This document shows positions 32,743-38,941 of a DNA stretch of 64,000 bases, piece by piece; the first letter of the stretch is position 1; the number at the start of each line of letters is the position of its first letter. This DNA comes from a virus (Duplodnaviria; Caudoviricetes): positions 64,001 through 128,000 of IMG/VR virus record IMGVR_UViG_3300021400_000138; one strand, given 5' to 3'. The position numbers were made by a program, and so were the translations under genes. The notes under the pieces were generated by a model that saw only the letters and a program-made list of their open reading frames with translations, did no database searches and was not told the DNA's origin.

Positions 32743-33387
32743 ATGAAAATTGAAAATACAGAAGTATGGGGATTTAAAGGAGCAATTCGTGGTGCAAGAA
32801 ACCCAATGAATTCCTGGGATAGAATGGACAGCACTTTTGATAATGAAATTGTAATTGGCCCAAATGATCTTAAACTCTGCCAAAGTCTTGTTAAAGCTGG
32901 TACGGAACACGCAAAATTTATGCGAATGATCCATGTTCAGGCGGATTTAACTTTGCCACGTTTTATATGGAGTGAATTTGATACATATAAATTTGTGGAA
33001 AAGAATAGTCAAAGTACGATTCATAAATTATTGAATACGTTTAACGAAATTACTTTAGATATGTTTGAAACAGATTATACATGGAATGAGTTTTATCTTA
33101 AAAGAGCAGCAATTGATGAACTTGAAAAACTTCGGAAGCAATATGCCGAGGTTAAAGCATCAAAAGATGTTGAAAATAAACAAGAAATCTTAAATGAATT
33201 ACTTTTCCGCGCAAAAATGATCCTGCCAGAATCTTTTCTTCAGTTAAGAACCATAGATACAAATTATGCCGAACTTCGAAATATATACTTTCAGAGAAAA
33301 AATCATAAGATGCCACAATGGCATACAATTTGCGATTGGATTAAAAGTTTACCATACGGTGAAGAACTGATAACATTAGGAGAATAA
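32743..33387 (+). CDS. ThyX-like (flavin-dependent thymidylate synthase fold) protein
   Basis: ARNPMNSW, EHAKFMR, PRFIWSEFDTYK, ILPES, NYAELRNIYFQRKNHK motifs in a nucleotide-metabolism context. Confidence 0.7.
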   Translation: MKIENTEVWGFKGAIRGARNPMNSWDRMDSTFDNEIVIGPNDLKLCQSLVKAGTEHAKFMRMIHVQADLTLPRFIWSEFDTYKFVEKNSQSTIHKLLNTFNEITLDMFETDYTWNEFYLKRAAIDELEKLRKQYAEVKASKDVENKQEILNELLFRAKMILPESFLQLRTIDTNYAELRNIYFQRKNHKMPQWHTICDWIKSLPYGEELITLGE

Positions 33388-33390
33388 TAT

Positions 33391-33840
33391 ATGAAGATAT
33401 TAAAAAATAACTATAATGAATCTACTTGCGAATGTGAAAAGTGTGGTTCTGTTTTATGTATTAGCGAAGATGATTATTACATGGACGAAAACAACAATAC
33501 ATATTGGAGATGCCCACTTTGTAAAGCAAAAAATATTGTTAAAGAACCAGAAATAACTATTGAAACAATTAAGTTTCCGGAATCATTTCATGAGTTTTTG
33601 TCTGAAGAAAAAGGTGGAAATGCTACAGAAATTAAAGATGAAGAAACCAACGACTGGATTAAGGAGTGTTTAAAGTTTCTTAGAAGAAATCCAGATGAAA
33701 CATTTAGATATATTTCGTCTGGAGATACTTTTGTGGCGGTTTTTAAACATTATAGTGATGATGAATATCTTGCTATCGTAAGTAAAGATCACTATGAGTG
33801 TTATATACCTTTTGAAAATGAGGACTTTGAGTATGAATAA
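33391..33840 (+). CDS. zinc-ribbon hypothetical protein
   Basis: CEKCG...CPLC. Confidence 0.65.
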   Translation: MKILKNNYNESTCECEKCGSVLCISEDDYYMDENNNTYWRCPLCKAKNIVKEPEITIETIKFPESFHEFLSEEKGGNATEIKDEETNDWIKECLKFLRRNPDETFRYISSGDTFVAVFKHYSDDEYLAIVSKDHYECYIPFENEDFEYE

Positions 33841-34396
33841 AAAAATAATTTTATTGAATGGAAGTGCGGCGGCTGGAAAAGACACGTTTGCATCTATGAT
33901 TTCTTCAATCATACCCTCTATGTCATATTCCTCTGTCCAGTATGTTAAAGAAGCCGCAAAAGTTCTCGGCTGGGACGGAGTGACTAAGGATGAAAAGTCC
34001 AGAAAGTTTTTGTCGGATCTTAAGATTCTCGCCACAGAATATAATGATCATCCATACAAGATGTTATGTAAGGTGATTAATGATTTTTTACAAGATGATA
34101 TTCATGAATGGCTTTTTCTTCATGTTCGTGAACCTGGAGAAATTAGAAGATTGGTTAAGGTTTTCCCCGAAATTATTACGGTTCTGGTTATTAATCCGAA
34201 TGTTAGTCCTGTGACGAGTAATATGGCTGATGCAGGAGTGAATCACTACTATAGATATAACGAGAAGATTTTGAATGATGGCAGTCTTGCTGATCTTCAG
34301 AAGAAGGCGGAAGAATTTGTGAGGAAATATAGAATTGAAGACAGTAGAAGAAATGATACGGTCGAAAACTCCGGAAGGGTGGCAGAAGATTATTGA
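33833..34396 (+). CDS. deoxynucleoside monophosphate kinase-like protein
   Basis: LNGSAAAGKDT P-loop, LGWDG..KDEKSRKFLSDLK and HVREP motifs. Confidence 0.8.
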   Translation: MNKKIILLNGSAAAGKDTFASMISSIIPSMSYSSVQYVKEAAKVLGWDGVTKDEKSRKFLSDLKILATEYNDHPYKMLCKVINDFLQDDIHEWLFLHVREPGEIRRLVKVFPEIITVLVINPNVSPVTSNMADAGVNHYYRYNEKILNDGSLADLQKKAEEFVRKYRIEDSRRNDTVENSGRVAEDY

Positions 34397-34507
34397 TGAA
34401 GAAATGAAAAGATTAGGATTGAAATTTGTAAAAAGGGGGGGGGAAAGGTGTCGATTGTGGGCATCTTCTTCCTGAAGATTTTTAGATATAGAGGTGAATA
34501 ATAAAGA

Positions 34508-35314
34508 ATGAATGAAAGAGAAGAAATTTTAAGTAATCATAAATATAATATATGGCAGAGAAAGAATGGAAGTTGGCGATCTTATCTTCCAGATAAAACC
34601 AGAAAGAGCGGAAAGCGTGAAGTCGAGCGCATACATAAAGAAGACCTAGAAGATATAATAGTAGATTTTTATTTAAACCGAGAAAAATATGAAGCTGAAG
34701 CAGAAGAAAATGCCAGGATTATAGAAAAGACCAAAAAAGAAATAGAAGAATTTGAAACCAATAAATTATTAAAGGATGCTGCAACCTTTAAAGAGATTGA
34801 TATCTGGGATATAAAACCAACTTTATACTTAGCTAAACCTACTGGAGAAATTATATCTCGTGAAGCAAATAAGCCGATGAATTTCTATGTAGATGATACT
34901 ACTGAAACTTATGCTGGCTTGCATTATGTGGTATTAAGAACTAATGATGGGCCTAAGCGTTTTTGTGTACCAAGAATTATCTGTGCATTATTCAACGGCA
35001 TGCCACCAGAAGATATGAAAGATCCTACAGTAGATCATATTGACAAGAATTCGTTAAACGATTACTACCAAAATCTGCGCTGGATTGAACGAGAAGCAAA
35101 TTCTGCGATACGAGATAATCGCGCCACAGGCGAACTTAATGGTAGGGCATTGCTTACCACAAAAGATGTAATAGATATTTGTAATCTTTTGGTTAAGAAA
35201 GTAAAAACCGTACCTCAGATTGCCAGGATGTATGGGGTAAGTGATGGATGTATTAGAAACATTAAAGAAAAGAAAAATTGGAAATATATCACTCAATGTT
35301 TTCAGTTTGATTAA
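34508..35314 (+). CDS. HNH endonuclease with an integrase-like N-terminal domain and C-terminal HTH
   Basis: TVDHIDKNSLNDYYQNLRW HNH core and PQIARMYGVSDGCIRNIK HTH. The first ~55 aa align with the neighbouring integrase N-terminus. Confidence 0.8.
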   Translation: MNEREEILSNHKYNIWQRKNGSWRSYLPDKTRKSGKREVERIHKEDLEDIIVDFYLNREKYEAEAEENARIIEKTKKEIEEFETNKLLKDAATFKEIDIWDIKPTLYLAKPTGEIISREANKPMNFYVDDTTETYAGLHYVVLRTNDGPKRFCVPRIICALFNGMPPEDMKDPTVDHIDKNSLNDYYQNLRWIEREANSAIRDNRATGELNGRALLTTKDVIDICNLLVKKVKTVPQIARMYGVSDGCIRNIKEKKNWKYITQCFQFD

Positions 35315-35393
35315 CCATTTATATAGGAAGAGATTATTTTAGAAGAAGGGAGAATTTTAATTATAAGTTAAACTTTGATTAAATAAATATTAC

Positions 35394-36617
35394 ATGAAAG
35401 ATAAGAATTTGAAAGATAAAGATAAAAATGATATAATGTCTTCGCTAGGTATCAGCGAATATATTATGTTGAGTAAAAAGGAGAAATATTTAGATAAACA
35501 CAAGTATTCAATTTGGCAGAGTAAAGATGGAAAGTACTGGTACACTTATTTTCCAGATAAAACAAAAAAGACTGGATACAAACAAATAAGAAGACACTCG
35601 AAGTTGGAAATTGATTTAGAGATTATAAAATATTATGAATCTCTTTCAGAAAGAAAGCTAATAGAAGATGTCTTTATTGAATGGAATGATCATCGCCTGG
35701 AACTAAATAAGATTAGCAAATCTACTCATTTGCGAAATGAACAAATTTTTAATAAGCATTTTGGTGATATTGCACAAGATCCAATTGATGAAATGTCCCC
35801 TGATGATTTTTCTGATTTTCTTGAAGAACAGATACCAAAACATTCTTTAACTAGTAAAGCTTTTTCTAATCTCAAAGGAATAGTTAAAGGGATGTTGAAG
35901 CTTGCGAGAAAAAGAGGATACATAAACTATACAGCTGATGACGTATTTGCAATATTGGATATTTCAGACAGATCATTTAGAAAAGTTATTAAAGAAGATG
36001 AAGATGAGGTATATAATGAAGAAGAGATGGAGATTATTCTGAAATATCTCACCGATAACAAAGATCCCAAAAATCTTGGTATTCTTCTTATGTTTGTGAC
36101 CGGAATACGAGTTGGAGAACTTGTTGCCTTGAAACATTCTGATTTTCAAGATAATGTTGTTAAAATCAGAAGGACAGAAACAAGAGTTCCAAAAGAAGAA
36201 AGATCTGGATCAGATTATATTGTGAAGGAATTCCCAAAATCTGCCGCCGGAGTACGATCAGTTGTTATTCCTGAAGAATTTCTATGGCTTGCCCAGGTTT
36301 TATCTTATGGCGAACCAGACGAATTCGTTTTTATTAATGAAGAAGGAGATAGGCTTACAACAAACGCCATCAGGAGAAGGCTTGAAAGAGTTTGCAAATA
36401 TCTTGGCATTAAGCAAAAGTCTCCACATAAGATAAGGAAGACATACGGATCGATACTTCTGGATAATAATGTGGACAATAATCTGATAAAAGGACAGATG
36501 GGACATACAGATATCGGATGTACTGAGACACATTATCACCGGAATCGGAAAGATAACGAAAAAAAATCTGAGATCATAAGCAATATCCCAGATTTTAAAG
36601 CTGTTAGTAACTTATAA
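35394..36617 (+). CDS. int: tyrosine integrase
   Basis: TGIRVGEL (R), PKS (K), HKIRKTY (HxxR), QMGHTD and THYH (Y) catalytic residues. Confidence 0.93.
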   Translation: MKDKNLKDKDKNDIMSSLGISEYIMLSKKEKYLDKHKYSIWQSKDGKYWYTYFPDKTKKTGYKQIRRHSKLEIDLEIIKYYESLSERKLIEDVFIEWNDHRLELNKISKSTHLRNEQIFNKHFGDIAQDPIDEMSPDDFSDFLEEQIPKHSLTSKAFSNLKGIVKGMLKLARKRGYINYTADDVFAILDISDRSFRKVIKEDEDEVYNEEEMEIILKYLTDNKDPKNLGILLMFVTGIRVGELVALKHSDFQDNVVKIRRTETRVPKEERSGSDYIVKEFPKSAAGVRSVVIPEEFLWLAQVLSYGEPDEFVFINEEGDRLTTNAIRRRLERVCKYLGIKQKSPHKIRKTYGSILLDNNVDNNLIKGQMGHTDIGCTETHYHRNRKDNEKKSEIISNIPDFKAVSNL

Positions 36618-36630
36618 ATAATTAAGAAGA

Positions 36631-36790
36631 ATCTCTTAACGATCTCTTAATTTTAGCCTATTGATGAGCTAAAAGCCCTGAAAATAGGCAAAAGAAAAGC
36701 TGCTGACGGGAATCGGAGAAGTGACCGCATGGCTTGAAAGCCCGTAAAATAGGCATTCTTTAAAAAAATAATCTTTTAACGTTTTTAACG
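36631..36790. other. attP region: tRNA 3'-end core with flanking arm-type repeats
   Basis: 36698-36717 reads TCCGATTCCCGTCAGCAGCT on the - strand (T-loop to acceptor stem, Thr-like). Direct repeats AAAGCCC..AAAATAGGCA at 36672 and 36737. ATCT(C/T)TTAA repeats at 36631, 36642 and 36771. Confidence 0.75.
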
Positions 36791-36841
36791 GCCAATAATC
36801 AGGAGGTCATAGCTGATATCTAGCAAATTTCAGCCGACCAG

Positions 36842-36893
36842 AAAAGCATATATGAAAGAATAGTTCTCATCATATTTTTTCATATATGCTTTT
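36842..36893. terminator. long inverted repeat, probable terminator between attP and the DUF262 gene
   Basis: AAAAGCATATATGAAA ... TTTCATATATGCTTTT. Confidence 0.6.
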
Positions 36894-37004
36894 TTATATC
36901 ACCACAGCGATACCTCGCCAAATTGTACTTTTTTCAATACAATCCTCATCTTATATACAAAAATTATTATTCTCCTTTATAATTAAATAAAAAGGAGGTA
37001 CATC

Positions 37005-38000
37005 ATGATAAATCTAAAATCTTCATCCTGGAATCCAAAACGTCTTTGCACTCAAATAGAAAAAGGTAATGCATCATTCGATAACGAGATCCAAAGAGCA
37101 GCAGTATGGAATGCCACTCAGAAATCTCTCCTCATTCATAGCATGATAATAGGCTATCCAATTCCGCCACTTTATGCAACACAGAATGACAAGATCATAG
37201 ACTTTCTTGACGGTAAACAACGTTCACTGGCGATATATGATTTCCGCAATAATAAACTGGCACTTCGTGAACTTCCGGAAATCAAAACAGATGATGGGCC
37301 AGTTGATATTACTGGTATGAAATATAAAGATCTTCCAGAAGAACTGAAAGATTCTTTTGACAACTATTCCCTAACCATCACAATCATGGATAATATTACC
37401 CGTGAAGAATCCGAAGAAATATTTTTCCGTCTCAACAACGGTACGGCGCTAAAAACAGCGGATAAAAACTTCGCCAAGGCTATATCTAAAGACAGCATCA
37501 TAAAACTATGTGAACACGAAATATTTGAACGTGCATTAACTAAGAATGCCCAGGCTAAACTTGCCCAAAGACCAATAGTTATACAATCCATAATGTTGTT
37601 ATCTGGTCAACACAATCTTTCTGCACGACAAATGGCCGAGTTTTTATCACAACATAAAATCACCAACGATGAATATGAACAAATTTCTTCTTTATACGAC
37701 AGATTAGATACAATCGCCGCAAGTATTGCTTCGGACGAAAATATAGCCACTACACAGCGCAAAAAGACCATACGTCATTTACTAAGCAGAACAAATCTTC
37801 CATCTGTACTTCCGCTTATGAGTTCCACAGAAGATGATGATAAACTACAAGGTTTCTTCGCAAAATTTTTCGGTAGTGATTCAAAATCTTCGATTAATGA
37901 AAGTTACAACGAAGCTTGCGGAGCGGGATCAACTCATTTGAGTAACGTAGAAAGAAGATTGGATATTCTAGACAAAGAATTCAAAAAAATAAAATCGTAA
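37005..38000 (+). CDS. DUF262 (GmrSD N-terminal / ParB-like) domain protein
   Basis: IQR..VW...KSLLIHS...YPIP, LDGKQR and IFFRLNNG motifs, with AAGGAGG RBS. Confidence 0.85.
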   Translation: MINLKSSSWNPKRLCTQIEKGNASFDNEIQRAAVWNATQKSLLIHSMIIGYPIPPLYATQNDKIIDFLDGKQRSLAIYDFRNNKLALRELPEIKTDDGPVDITGMKYKDLPEELKDSFDNYSLTITIMDNITREESEEIFFRLNNGTALKTADKNFAKAISKDSIIKLCEHEIFERALTKNAQAKLAQRPIVIQSIMLLSGQHNLSARQMAEFLSQHKITNDEYEQISSLYDRLDTIAASIASDENIATTQRKKTIRHLLSRTNLPSVLPLMSSTEDDDKLQGFFAKFFGSDSKSSINESYNEACGAGSTHLSNVERRLDILDKEFKKIKS

Positions 38001-38005
38001 AAAAT

Positions 38006-38030
38006 GGGGTAGGACATATAATCCTACCCC
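38006..38030. terminator. hairpin terminator between the convergent early and late blocks
   Basis: GGGGTAGGA-7 nt-TCCTACCCC flanked by A/T tracts. Confidence 0.8.
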
Positions 38031-38073
38031 TTAAAATATTGTATCTGATATCACATATAATATTTGTTAAGTA

Positions 38074-38409
38074 TTACTTTTCTTCAATCTTATCTTTGTC
38101 TTTATTGAAAATCTTATCAAGCTGAGTATAAGCGTATTTCTGCGCCGCATCAAATGTGGCCTATACCAGTCCACGAATAGTTTCTTTGGTAAAGATTACT
38201 CTCATTGGCGCAGGAATTTTATCAAAAATAAATGAGACCACAAACTCTTGTTTGATAGATCCAGCCTTCATTACCGAGGAGTATTCCATCTCAGCTTCAC
38301 AAATTTTTTCTTGCGCCATTTCAATAATGTTGGTGCGGGTTTTAAGATAAACGACAATAAATCCAAGTAAAATCCATGCGATATTCAGCAATACTGTTCC
38401 AATATTCAT
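38074..38409 (-). CDS. holin-like protein (111 aa with TAG=Gln)
   Basis: Single N-terminal TM helix. One TAG (38161) reads through to TAA 38074. Confidence 0.65.
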
Positions 38410-38422
38410 AAATCATTCCTCC

Positions 38423-38941
38423 TTAATACGTTGGAAATCCACTTTCAAGATATTCCGCATAGCGTTTCTTTATATATGCAATAGCAAGATCAACCTGTCC
38501 ATTTTCTAAATGATTTTCTACCAAAATCTTTTCATACTTGTCATATGTGGAAAGAATATGATCGAAATTTTCTTTGGAGTAATCCCGTTTTTGACATGCG
38601 TTACCAAAATCAAGTATCTCATATCTCATGCGTTCAATCTTGTCATCCAACATTGATTTCTTTATTCCATCAAGAGCGTCCATAATATTAGTTTGAAACT
38701 TTTTCATTTCTTCGTGATCAGATTCCTAGAGCTATTTAAGTTCTTGAGTCTCTTCTTCAATTTTATTAATCTTTTCACTCTACTCCTTTTCTCTCCGAGA
38801 TGCATTGGTACTAATACCAAACCTCTCTTTAAAATAGTCAAACAACTTAACAATCAACTAAAAAAATAACAACGCCGCCAAAATGGTAACAATAATTTCA
38901 CCTTTGTTACCAACAGATAATAATTGATTTAGCTCATCCAT
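38423..38941 (-). CDS. holin-like membrane/coiled-coil lysis-module protein (172 aa with TAG=Gln)
   Basis: AAGGAG RBS, ATG 38941 and a TM helix. Four in-frame TAGs (38858, 38780, 38732, 38726) precede the 94-aa fragment in the ORF track. Confidence 0.7.

What the first reader, a model, noticed from the sequence alone, without database searches (positions are those of the whole stretch)
34508..36617. HNH nuclease carrying a duplicate of the adjacent integrase's N-terminal domain
Seen: LSNHKYNIWQRKNGSWRSYLPDKTRKSGKREVERIHKEDLEDIIVDFY (HNH protein) aligns with LDKHKYSIWQSKDGKYWYTYFPDKTKKTGYKQIRRHSKLEIDLEIIKYY (integrase). Known: the N-terminal domain of lambda-type integrases binds att arm sites. 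Inference: this fusion could aim a nuclease at att arms (homing of the integration module, or exclusion of competing elements), or compete for arm sites as a directionality factor. I do not know this architecture as a described system.
Basis: partly seen in the sequence, partly recalled or inferred. Interest (0 to 1): 0.7.

Follow-up and report, generated by a model that had tools for sequence, protein, structure and literature searches.

The report
Homing-type nuclease carrying an integrase arm domain
A 185-kb gut phage encodes a DNA-cutting enzyme of the homing-endonuclease type fused to a copy of the DNA-binding domain its neighbouring integrase probably uses on attachment-site repeats; the fusion travels with the integrase and attachment site as one swappable cassette, so it may move or police integration modules, but this is untested.

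Summary
ORF 34508-35314 (268 aa) and the integrase ORF 35394-36617 (407 aa) share a ~56-aa N-terminal domain (BLASTP E=7e-11, 39% identity). These are the only two copies in the 185-kb phage genome.

The nuclease has three parts: the N-domain (1-58), a long helix (59-94), and an I-HmuI-like NUMOD4/HNH_3/HTH core (95-268) with the catalytic D176-H177...N189...N198 conserved.

The N-domain is the usual N-terminus of many Lachnospiraceae prophage integrases. Between the window and a sister phage, the integrase N-domain and the outer attP repeats were replaced together, while the rest of Int (95% identical) and the tRNA-Thr core stayed. That marks it as the arm-site reader.

The fusion is rare: 14 distinct proteins. 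In all six visible contexts it sits directly upstream of int. It was absent from about 150 other loci with related integrases, which have the same attP layout. So Int does not need it.

HNH+int+attP diverge as one cassette (55-70% nt) inside flanks that are 85-90% identical.

Best reading (~0.45): a homing-type, probably nicking, nuclease that captured int's 5' end and now drives or guards the integration cassette. A directionality-factor role is less likely. It is a new variant of known HNH-plus-DNA-binding-module homing endonucleases such as HNH-AP2. The same finding was also noted by the scan on an overlapping window of this genome.

The parts
34508..35314 (+). Gene for the 268-aa HNH fusion protein (P0001)
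   Evidence: ORF, translation. Pfam HNH_3 and PHROG 59 hits. Fourteen full-length homologues.
34508..34681 (+). N-domain (aa 1-58): integrase-type putative arm-binding domain, predicted as helix, 3-stranded sheet and helix
   Evidence: BLASTP to Int at E=7e-11. Aligned with 46 homologous N-domains (7 from HNH fusions, 39 from integrases), with H11, Y13, I15 and W16 invariant. AlphaFold pLDDT about 85-95. VIA Z=4.3 to the Tn916 Int N-domain, which is not above background.
34682..34789 (+). Linker (aa 59-94): one long predicted alpha-helix rich in E and K
   Evidence: AlphaFold model has helix 58-91 with pLDDT 78-94. Its length varies among homologues.
34790..35311 (+). I-HmuI-like nuclease core (aa 95-268): beta-sheet NUMOD4-like region, HNH motif (D176, H177, N189, N198) and C-terminal helix-turn-helix
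   Evidence: Foldseek 1u3e E=6e-6 and phmmer 1u3e E=0.043. 7,793 homologues, mostly about 175 aa with NUMOD4-HNH_3-HTH. Catalytic columns are invariant in A1. PADLOC 'HEase' models hit.
35394..36617 (+). Tyrosine integrase gene (407 aa, P0002)
   Evidence: Pfam Phage_integrase E=3e-21 and PHROG 1 E=4e-43. Catalytic R239, H345, R348, H371 and Y381 are invariant in A7.
35469..35657 (+). Integrase N-domain (aa 26-88), paralogue of the HNH N-domain
   Evidence: Against L183 it is 67% identical where the rest of Int is 95% identical, with dS 1.77 against 0.37. This indicates segmental replacement together with the outer arm repeats.
36630..36651 (+). attP left outer arm repeats: two tandem copies of ATCTCTTAA, 11 bp apart
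   Evidence: Replaced by TTGTATAA-type repeats in L183. The same 2+2 layout with other motifs is seen in L001, L002, L182, L191, L200, L230 and L252.
36672..36690 (+). Left inner 19-nt direct repeat AAAGCCCTGAAAATAGGCA
   Evidence: only two copies in the 64-kb window. Analogous inner repeats also occur in the HNH-less L191.
36695..36716 (-). attP core: the last 22 nt (T-loop to acceptor end, plus TTT) of a Lachnospiraceae tRNA-Thr(GGT) gene. Weaker similarity extends to 36728.
   Evidence: 65 of 401 Lachnospiraceae genomes match this segment. The matches lie inside tRNA-Thr(GGT) genes. Alignment.
36737..36755 (+). Right inner 19-nt direct repeat AAAGCCCGTAAAATAGGCA
36770..36793 (+). attP right outer arm repeats (ATCTTTTAACG and TTTTTAACGG)
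36842..36893 (+). Hairpin (21-nt arms, 95% complementary) followed by a T run; likely terminator near the right end of the cassette
   Evidence: Inverted repeat I3. Nucleotide identity to L002 returns to 90% from 36934.

Best explanation
The gene encodes a site-specific HNH endonuclease of the I-HmuI type, probably a nickase. It carries an extra N-terminal DNA-binding module that came from the 5' end of a tyrosine-integrase gene, most simply the neighbouring int.

Shown here:
- The domain layout.
- Conserved catalytic residues.
- Homology of the N-domain with integrase N-domains.
- Strict position directly upstream of int.
- Patchy occurrence among related integration modules.
- Co-divergence of HNH+int+attP as one cassette.

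Inferred mechanism: the N-domain, held on a helix about 5 nm long, anchors the nuclease to an arm-type repeat or a similar short site in or near the int/attP region of a related phage genome. The HNH centre cuts nearby. Recombinational repair from the co-infecting HNH-bearing genome then copies the nuclease gene, and with it int and attP, into the cut genome. On this reading the gene is an optional selfish add-on that makes the whole integration cassette mobile between related phages. It is not a part of the recombination machinery.
For: 1. The core is an I-HmuI-like homing endonuclease: Foldseek 1u3e E=6e-6, phmmer 1u3e E=0.043, PHROG 59 and PADLOC HEase models. Its homologues are about 175-aa NUMOD4-HNH_3-HTH proteins.
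2. D176, H177, N189 and N198 are invariant across 15 fusion proteins down to 36% identity. The core has omega 0.035.
3. The N-domain is homologous to integrase N-domains. In Int it changes together with the outer attP repeats while the rest of Int stays 95% identical. It therefore reads short DNA repeats.
4. The gene is optional. 72 loci with this N-domain on integrases and 80 loci with integrases 45-58% identical have no such gene. Some of these share the nrdDG-dUTPase-int order, and the att regions inspected in nine HNH-less loci show the same arm repeats, with the full layout where both arms are visible.
5. Window against L002: nt identity is 85-90% in the flanks. It falls to 55-70% from the HNH start (about 34490) to the end of attP (about 36930) and then returns to 90%. 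The two cassettes carry different tRNA-derived cores and different arm motifs. Nuclease genes sitting at boundaries of exchange between phages are a described pattern (PMC10448857).
6. The N-domain evolves about 4 times faster in dN than the core at equal dS. N-domain sequences are shared between HNH and Int genes of different phages at 77-80% nt identity. Both fit changing target specificity.
Against: No target site or cleavage is known. Both genomes compared across the cassette carry an HNH gene, and no close relative (flanks above 85% identical) without it was found, so homing into an empty site has not been seen. The conserved position, the short or overlapping gap to int and the single copy per genome would also fit a domesticated gene that works with Int. 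The integrase tree does not exclude one ancient gain followed by vertical descent. Structural similarity of the N-domain to the Tn916 Int or AP2 domains is weak (Z=4.3 and 3.7, within background).
Confidence: 0.45

Rival explanations
1. Exclusion nuclease against rivals. The protein uses the integrase-type domain to find arm repeats of other integration modules (incoming related phages, or resident prophages and ICEs of the Lachnospiraceae host) and cuts them. This blocks competitors without necessarily copying itself.
For: In 5 of 6 genomes the HNH N-domain is closer to the integrase N-domains of other elements than to its neighbour's. Examples are the window HNH against the P0011/L099-type integrase at 51-55%, and the L002 and L001 HNH against the window Int at 62-68%. 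After integration the gene would lie at a prophage end, a usual place for defence genes. The gene across attP (37005-38000) matches the PADLOC model NsnA at E=3e-30. Each cassette's arm motif is absent from the other cassettes.
Against: Similarity of N-domains does not predict the DNA motif. The window and L183 Int N-domains have nearly the same sheet residues but different arms. There is no expression or cleavage data. The AU test cannot reject a single origin of all HNH N-domains (p=0.23).
Confidence: 0.2
2. Accessory factor of the integrase: a directionality factor, an arm-site competitor, or a nicking helper. It binds attP, attL or attR through the shared domain type and biases integration against excision.
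For: It is always directly upstream of int on the same strand, with gaps of 0-79 nt or overlapping stop/start. It is inherited together with int and attP. attP holds two repeat families.
Against: About 150 related integrase loci lack the gene, and the att regions inspected in nine HNH-less loci show the same arm repeats; HNH-less L191 also has the inner repeats. Some of those are integrated beside complete tRNA genes (L196, L227), so recombination works without it. A DNA-bending or competing factor would not need an invariant HNH centre under strong purifying selection. Known directionality factors are small proteins without nuclease domains (own knowledge).
Confidence: 0.12
3. Ordinary free-standing homing endonuclease whose N-domain is a leftover of how it inserted, by partial duplication of int's 5' end. 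On this reading the domain serves as a generic extra DNA-binding module for a target unrelated to att arms, for example inside the int coding region.
For: Homing endonucleases of this group freely combine with NUMOD, HTH and AP2 modules (PMC5714182). Adjacency plus paralogy is what an insertion-linked duplication would leave. The two N-domain coding segments still share 84% identity over 32 nt.
Against: The N-domain has been kept for a long time (omega 0.155, present down to 36% overall identity) and shows signs of exchange with integrase genes. That suggests its integrase-like specificity matters.
Confidence: 0.18

Closest known systems
I-HmuI and related NUMOD4-HNH_3-HTH homing endonucleases (His-Me finger group 2; Bacillus phage SPO1 and many phages)
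   Same: Same catalytic core and same order of beta-sheet region, HNH motif and C-terminal helix-turn-helix. Phage-encoded and about 175 aa in the core.
   Different: Carries about 94 extra N-terminal residues: an integrase-type domain plus a long helix. It is not in an intron. It is fixed next to an integrase rather than in DNA-metabolism or structural genes.
HNH-AP2 homing endonucleases (Magnani et al. 2004, as cited in PMC10448857 and PMC5714182; 'IPA-HNH' genes of vibriophage ICP1)
   Same: An HNH nuclease joined to a small sheet-plus-helix DNA-binding domain. That is the fold class to which integrase arm-binding domains are also assigned (own knowledge: Tn916 and lambda Int N-domain structures).
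   Different: There the AP2 domain is C-terminal and matches Pfam AP2. Here the domain is N-terminal, has no AP2 hit at E<=1 and is a direct sequence homologue of integrase N-termini.
Arm-binding N-domains of heterobivalent tyrosine integrases (lambda Int, Tn916 Int)
   Same: Same place in the integrase, before the core-binding and catalytic domains. Same predicted sheet-plus-helix topology. attP has tandem arm repeats on both sides of the core. The domain and the repeats change together.
   Different: No detectable sequence match to the solved domains and only weak structural scores. Here the domain is also attached to a nuclease.
Homing endonuclease genes at boundaries of genetic exchange between phages (Barth et al. 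2023, PMC10448857)
   Same: A nuclease gene lies exactly at the edge of a block that differs between otherwise similar phage genomes.
   Different: The block here is a lysogeny module (int+attP), and the nuclease shares a domain with the block's own recombinase.

Membership tests
HNH_3 / I-HmuI-like homing endonucleases (His-Me finger group 2) | beta-beta-alpha-metal HNH motif with the D-H ... N ... N residues | tested here: met
   Pfam HNH_3 scores 26.0 bits against a cut-off of 24.8. VDHID...NLRW...N aligns with the I-HmuI motif. D176, H177, N189 and N198 are invariant in A1.
HNH_3 / I-HmuI-like homing endonucleases (His-Me finger group 2) | Overall fold like I-HmuI (N-terminal sheet region, HNH, helical linker, C-terminal HTH) | tested here: met
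   Foldseek gives 1u3e_M as top hit at E=6e-6, probability 1.0, 152 columns. The model has mean pLDDT 84.7. Homologues carry NUMOD4 and HTH Pfam domains.
HNH_3 / I-HmuI-like homing endonucleases (His-Me finger group 2) | Sporadic presence among related genomes (mobile gene) | tested here: inconclusive
   Absent from L182 and from 80 metagenome loci with related integrases, some with the same upstream genes. The integrase tree allows a single gain. No near-identical genome pair differing only in this gene was found.
HNH_3 / I-HmuI-like homing endonucleases (His-Me finger group 2) | Site-specific cleavage or nicking and homing | not testable with these tools
   Needs enzyme assays and mixed-infection or plasmid homing assays.
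Arm-binding N-domain of heterobivalent tyrosine integrases | Sequence homology of the HNH N-terminus with N-termini of full-length integrases | tested here: met
   BLASTP E=7e-11 to the neighbour. E down to 1e-16 to Lachnospiraceae integrases. Alignment A3 of 47 domains.
Arm-binding N-domain of heterobivalent tyrosine integrases | Three-stranded sheet packed on a helix, like the Tn916 or lambda Int N-domain | tested here: inconclusive
   The model topology fits. 1bb8 ranks third of 48,161 chains, but at Z=4.3 (rmsd 2.4, 47 aligned), level with unrelated small folds. 2gcc gives Z=3.7. Foldseek E values are 1.3-1.8.
Arm-binding N-domain of heterobivalent tyrosine integrases | Recognises repeated arm sites flanking the attP core | tested here: inconclusive
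   Indirect support for the Int copy: the N-domain (67% against 95% identity, dS 1.77 against 0.37) and the outer repeats were replaced together between the window and L183. No evidence for the HNH copy. Binding assays are needed.
HNH-AP2 homing endonucleases | Pfam AP2 domain C-terminal to the HNH domain | tested here: not met
   No AP2 hit at E<=1 for the protein or for 47 N-domains. The extra domain is N-terminal.
Recombination directionality factors (Xis-type) | Small DNA-bending protein without enzymatic domain, needed for excision by its integrase | tested here: not met
   The protein is 268 aa with a conserved nuclease centre. Most related integrase loci lack it, and the att regions inspected in nine HNH-less loci show the same arm repeats. 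The requirement for excision itself was not testable.

The most novel reading that the evidence does not exclude
The nuclease reads arm-type repeats of rival attP sites through a captured integrase domain and cuts there. Repair then overwrites the rival's int-attP with the attacker's HNH-int-attP cassette. This would be a gene drive that re-targets where related temperate phages integrate. Repeated swapping of N-domains between int and HNH genes would reset its specificity.
Probability: 0.18. Interest if true: 0.8.

Novelty: new variant of a known kind. Interest (0 to 1): 0.55.

Why it matters
Homing endonucleases are known to pick up assorted DNA-binding modules. Integrase arm domains are known to share a fold class with AP2 domains. 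A nuclease that shares its targeting domain with the recombinase next door, and that is inherited with that recombinase and its attachment site as one exchangeable block, has not, as far as I could find, been described.

If the nuclease acts on att arm repeats, it would give a concrete mechanism for how whole integration modules, and so prophage insertion sites, are shuffled among related phages. Here these are large, stop-codon-recoded gut phages of Lachnospiraceae.

Two by-products are useful on their own. The window/L183 pair looks like a natural domain-swap experiment that links this uncharacterised integrase N-domain to its arm repeats. The modular layout (small DNA reader, rigid helix, nickase) is also of interest for engineering site-directed nickases.

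Tried and rejected
1. I tested whether the inner 19-nt direct repeats (36672 and 36737) are the HNH protein's own sites. This is rejected as HNH-specific, because HNH-less L191 has the same tRNA-Thr core with equivalent inner repeats.
2. I tested whether this is a recent local duplication. It is not. Identity within one genome is 28-53%, lower than to integrases elsewhere.
3. I tested for polyphyly of the HNH N-domains. The tree shows starred mixed clades, but the AU test does not reject one clade (p=0.23). I claim only 'intermingled'.
4. I looked for sequence matches of the N-domain to known families. There were no Pfam hits above cut-off, only sub-threshold DUF5633 in 31 of 47 members (best E=6e-4). 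There were no PDB sequence hits.
5. I looked for an excisionase in the small ORFs upstream. No family hit was found.
6. Rfam found nothing in 34300-38500.
7. Cultured-phage records (INPHARED) have no hit covering the N-terminal part, only HNH cores.
8. IMG/VR and metagenome scans with the single integrase or the upstream kinase-like protein found no close relatives. No near-identical genome lacking the HNH gene could therefore be examined.
9. I tried to predict DNA specificity from N-domain similarity. This is unreliable, because the window and L183 Int have similar sheet residues but different arms.
10. No prophage carrying the fusion was seen among 54 hits in species-representative genomes.
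Full report
WHAT IS THERE. The window is bases 64001-128000 of a 185,390-bp virus record with direct terminal repeats. Their N-termini align by BLASTP at E=7e-11, with 39% identity over the 56-aa core. A six-frame search of the whole phage finds this domain only in these two genes. The phage has a single HNH core of this type. Besides this integrase it has two shorter tyrosine recombinases elsewhere.

ANATOMY OF THE NUCLEASE. Pfam finds HNH_3 at residues 156-199, just above its cut-off, plus weak C-terminal helix-turn-helix matches. PHROG 59 'HNH endonuclease' covers residues 70-263. PADLOC's homing-endonuclease models also hit.

An exhaustive HMMER search gives 7,793 relatives. Nearly all match only residues ~95-268 and are about 175 aa long. 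A sample of them carries NUMOD4, HNH_3 and HTH domains.

The AlphaFold model (mean pLDDT 84.7) shows four parts:
- a helix, three strands and a helix in residues 1-56;
- one long helix at 58-91;
- a beta-rich region with the HNH hairpin and helix;
- four C-terminal helices.

Foldseek's only significant PDB match is the nicking homing endonuclease I-HmuI (1u3e, E=6e-6). phmmer aligns VDHID...NLRW...N with the I-HmuI motif. D176, H177, N189 and N198 are invariant in all 15 aligned fusion proteins.

THE N-DOMAIN IS AN INTEGRASE DOMAIN. Pattern scans with an alignment of the domain found 54 loci in species-representative genomes, almost all Lachnospiraceae, and 18 more IMG/VR loci. In every case the domain heads a tyrosine integrase of about 400 aa, and no HNH core lies within 6-10 kb. 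The window's HNH N-domain scores as well against these integrases (up to 51% identity, E=1e-16) as the window's own Int N-domain does.

Sequence searches give no named family. There is only a sub-threshold DUF5633 signal and nothing in the PDB by sequence. A model of the domain alone (pLDDT 84.5) aligns to the Tn916 integrase N-terminal DNA-binding domain at Z=4.3 and to the AP2/GCC-box domain at Z=3.7. These scores do not stand out from unrelated small folds. The structural assignment is therefore only consistent, not shown.

THE INTEGRATION MODULE IS REAL, AND THE N-DOMAIN GOES WITH THE ARM REPEATS. Bases 36695-36716, on the reverse strand, equal the last 22 nt of a tRNA-Thr(GGT) gene. 65 of 401 Lachnospiraceae genomes sampled match this segment. 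The loci examined carry it inside tRNA-Thr(GGT) genes.

Around this core lie two inner 19-nt direct repeats (36672 and 36737) and two outer pairs of tandem repeats of the type TCTYTTAAC (36630-36651 and 36770-36793). Sister cassettes have the same layout with other tRNA fragments and other motifs:
- GAGTAAC in L001;
- AAACCCA in L002;
- TTGTATWA in L183;
- AAACATACC in L191.
Each motif is confined to its own attP. Two HNH-less relatives (L196, L227) lie next to complete tRNA genes, meaning they are integrated.

The most telling comparison is the window against L183. The integrases are 95% identical outside the N-domain. Inside it they are 67% identical, and 49% in residues 52-88, with dS 1.77 against 0.37. 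The outer repeats are replaced in the same pair, while the core and the left inner repeat are kept. This looks like a natural module swap, and it ties the Int N-domain to the outer repeats.

DISTRIBUTION OF THE FUSION. Fourteen distinct full-length fusion proteins, 36-90% identical, exist in the two large protein collections. There are none among 50,697 deposited phage genomes. Wherever the downstream DNA is visible, an integrase with the same type of N-domain follows directly, with a gap of 0-79 nt or an overlap. This holds for the window, L001, L002-4, L007, L008 and L010. In L008 the integrase is only interrupted by a scaffold gap. Contigs reach 127-199 kb.

The gene is nevertheless optional. 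L182 has related upstream genes (NrdD-like, formate channel, dUTPase) followed by int, without it. None of 80 metagenome loci whose integrases are 45-58% identical to the window's has it. That identity range is the same as for the HNH-linked integrases. Several of those loci share the nrdD-nrdG-dUTPase-int order. On the integrase tree the HNH-linked genes are scattered. The best tree needs four changes, but well-supported branches do not exclude a single gain.

ONE CASSETTE. The window and L002 are 85-90% identical at nt level on both sides. Identity drops to 55-70% exactly from the HNH start to the end of attP (34488-36933) and then returns to 90%. HNH (60% aa) and Int (56% aa) diverge together, while the flanking proteins are 84-93% identical. 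The two cassettes carry different tRNA-derived cores and different arm motifs.

HISTORY OF THE N-DOMAIN. Within a genome the two N-domains are only 28-53% identical. Across genomes the picture differs:
- The L002 and L001 HNH N-domains are 68% and 62% identical to the window's Int N-domain. At nt level this is 80.5% over 113 nt and 77% over 123 nt.
- The L009 HNH N-domain sits inside a well-supported clade of integrase N-domains.
- P0007's HNH N-domain pairs with L008's integrase N-domain.

This suggests repeated exchange between int and HNH genes. With only 58 columns, however, the AU test cannot reject a single clade of HNH N-domains (p=0.23). Between the window and its 90% relative L188, the N-domain has dN 0.13 against 0.033 in the core, at similar dS (omega 0.155 against 0.035). 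It is still constrained but is changing faster.

HOW IT MOST LIKELY WORKS. The facts fit best with a homing-type endonuclease that acquired int's 5' end, most simply by an insertion-linked partial duplication. It would now use that domain, on a rigid helical spacer, as a third DNA-reading module. Its position at the cassette edge, its optional presence and its conserved active site favour a selfish or competitive role in which cutting a related genome leads to co-conversion of HNH, int and attP (confidence about 0.45).

A pure exclusion role (0.2) or an ordinary homing endonuclease whose target has nothing to do with att arms (0.18) cannot be separated from this by sequence.

A role as directionality factor or arm competitor (0.12) is least favoured. 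Most related integrases, with the same arm repeats in the att regions inspected, work without it, and such a role would not need the nuclease centre. I also tested whether the inner repeats could be its private binding sites. They are present in HNH-less L191 too.

COMPARISON WITH WHAT IS KNOWN. The core is a member of the HNH_3/I-HmuI group. That group is described as combining with NUMOD, HTH and AP2 modules (PMC5714182). HNH-AP2 genes are a recognised homing-endonuclease family (PMC10448857, citing Magnani et al. 2004). This protein is not a member of that family: it has no AP2 match and the opposite domain order. It follows the same design principle. Nuclease genes at the borders of exchanged blocks have been described in other phages (PMC10448857). 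Full-text searches found no paper describing an HNH nuclease fused to an integrase arm-type domain. I rate it a new variant of a known kind.

LIMITS. Nothing about binding, cleavage, expression or homing is shown. The host is inferred only from the tRNA match and from where the N-domain family occurs. The survey depends on pattern-based scans and on short metagenome contigs. Earlier notes of this scan report the same fusion on an overlapping window, the attP, and amber recoding of late genes in this phage. I re-derived the first two independently. I did not test the recoding, beyond noting that the HNH and int ORFs contain no in-frame stop under the standard code.

Noticed in passing
window 37005-38000 (+): The gene just across attP encodes a 331-aa DUF262/GmrSD_N-only protein that matches the PADLOC defence model NsnA over its full length (E=3e-30). 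After integration it and the HNH-int pair would sit at opposite prophage ends. It is conserved in L001, L002 and L183 but absent beside attP in L007, L010 and L182.
   Followed up: partly
window 34335-34487 (+), G run at 34435-34443: A small conserved ORF upstream of the HNH gene (55-71 aa in L002 and L001) is frameshifted in the window at a run of nine G. The conserved C-terminal part (GVDCGHLLPEDF) continues in the +1 frame and ends at a TAG. This could be a sequencing error, slippage or phase variation. No family match was found.
   Followed up: partly
window 35469-35657 vs L183:199-387; window 36630-36793 vs L183:1354-1530: Two integrases that are 95% identical elsewhere differ sharply in the N-domain (67% identity, dS 1.77 against 0.37). 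Their attP sites differ in the outer repeats only (TCTYTTAAC against TTGTATWA). This looks like a natural swap of arm reader and arm sites, useful for decoding this domain's DNA specificity.
   Followed up: yes
window 36800-36840 (+): A block of about 40 nt after the right arm (GGAGGTCATAGCTGATATCTAGCAAATTTCAGCCGACCAG) is 100% conserved in L183 and partly conserved in L007 and L182 (GGAGGGTCATCAATATCTAGCA). The strong hairpin 36842-36893 follows it. There is no Rfam hit and no obvious ORF under the standard code. Its function is unknown.
   Followed up: no
G000:C1:37162-37683 (+) and G000:C1:157320-157892 (-), outside the window: The phage encodes two more tyrosine recombinases in open frames of 327 and 313 aa, too short to hold the arm-type N-domain plus a full integrase, and the N-domain search found no third copy in the genome. 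The second has one in-frame TAG, in line with earlier notes that this phage reads TAG as sense in some genes.
   Followed up: no
L196:5300-5385 and L227:5290-5400: Integrases of the same subfamily in metagenome contigs lie next to complete tRNA genes with arm repeats on one side only. These are integrated prophages, which shows the subfamily integrates at tRNA genes without any HNH partner.
   Followed up: partly
window 32766-33437 and 38431-38834: Besides the HNH-int-attP cassette, two further short blocks drop to 20-45% nt identity between the window and L002, inside flanks that are otherwise 80-90% identical. These are additional mosaic replacement units with no nuclease gene noticed nearby.
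   Followed up: no
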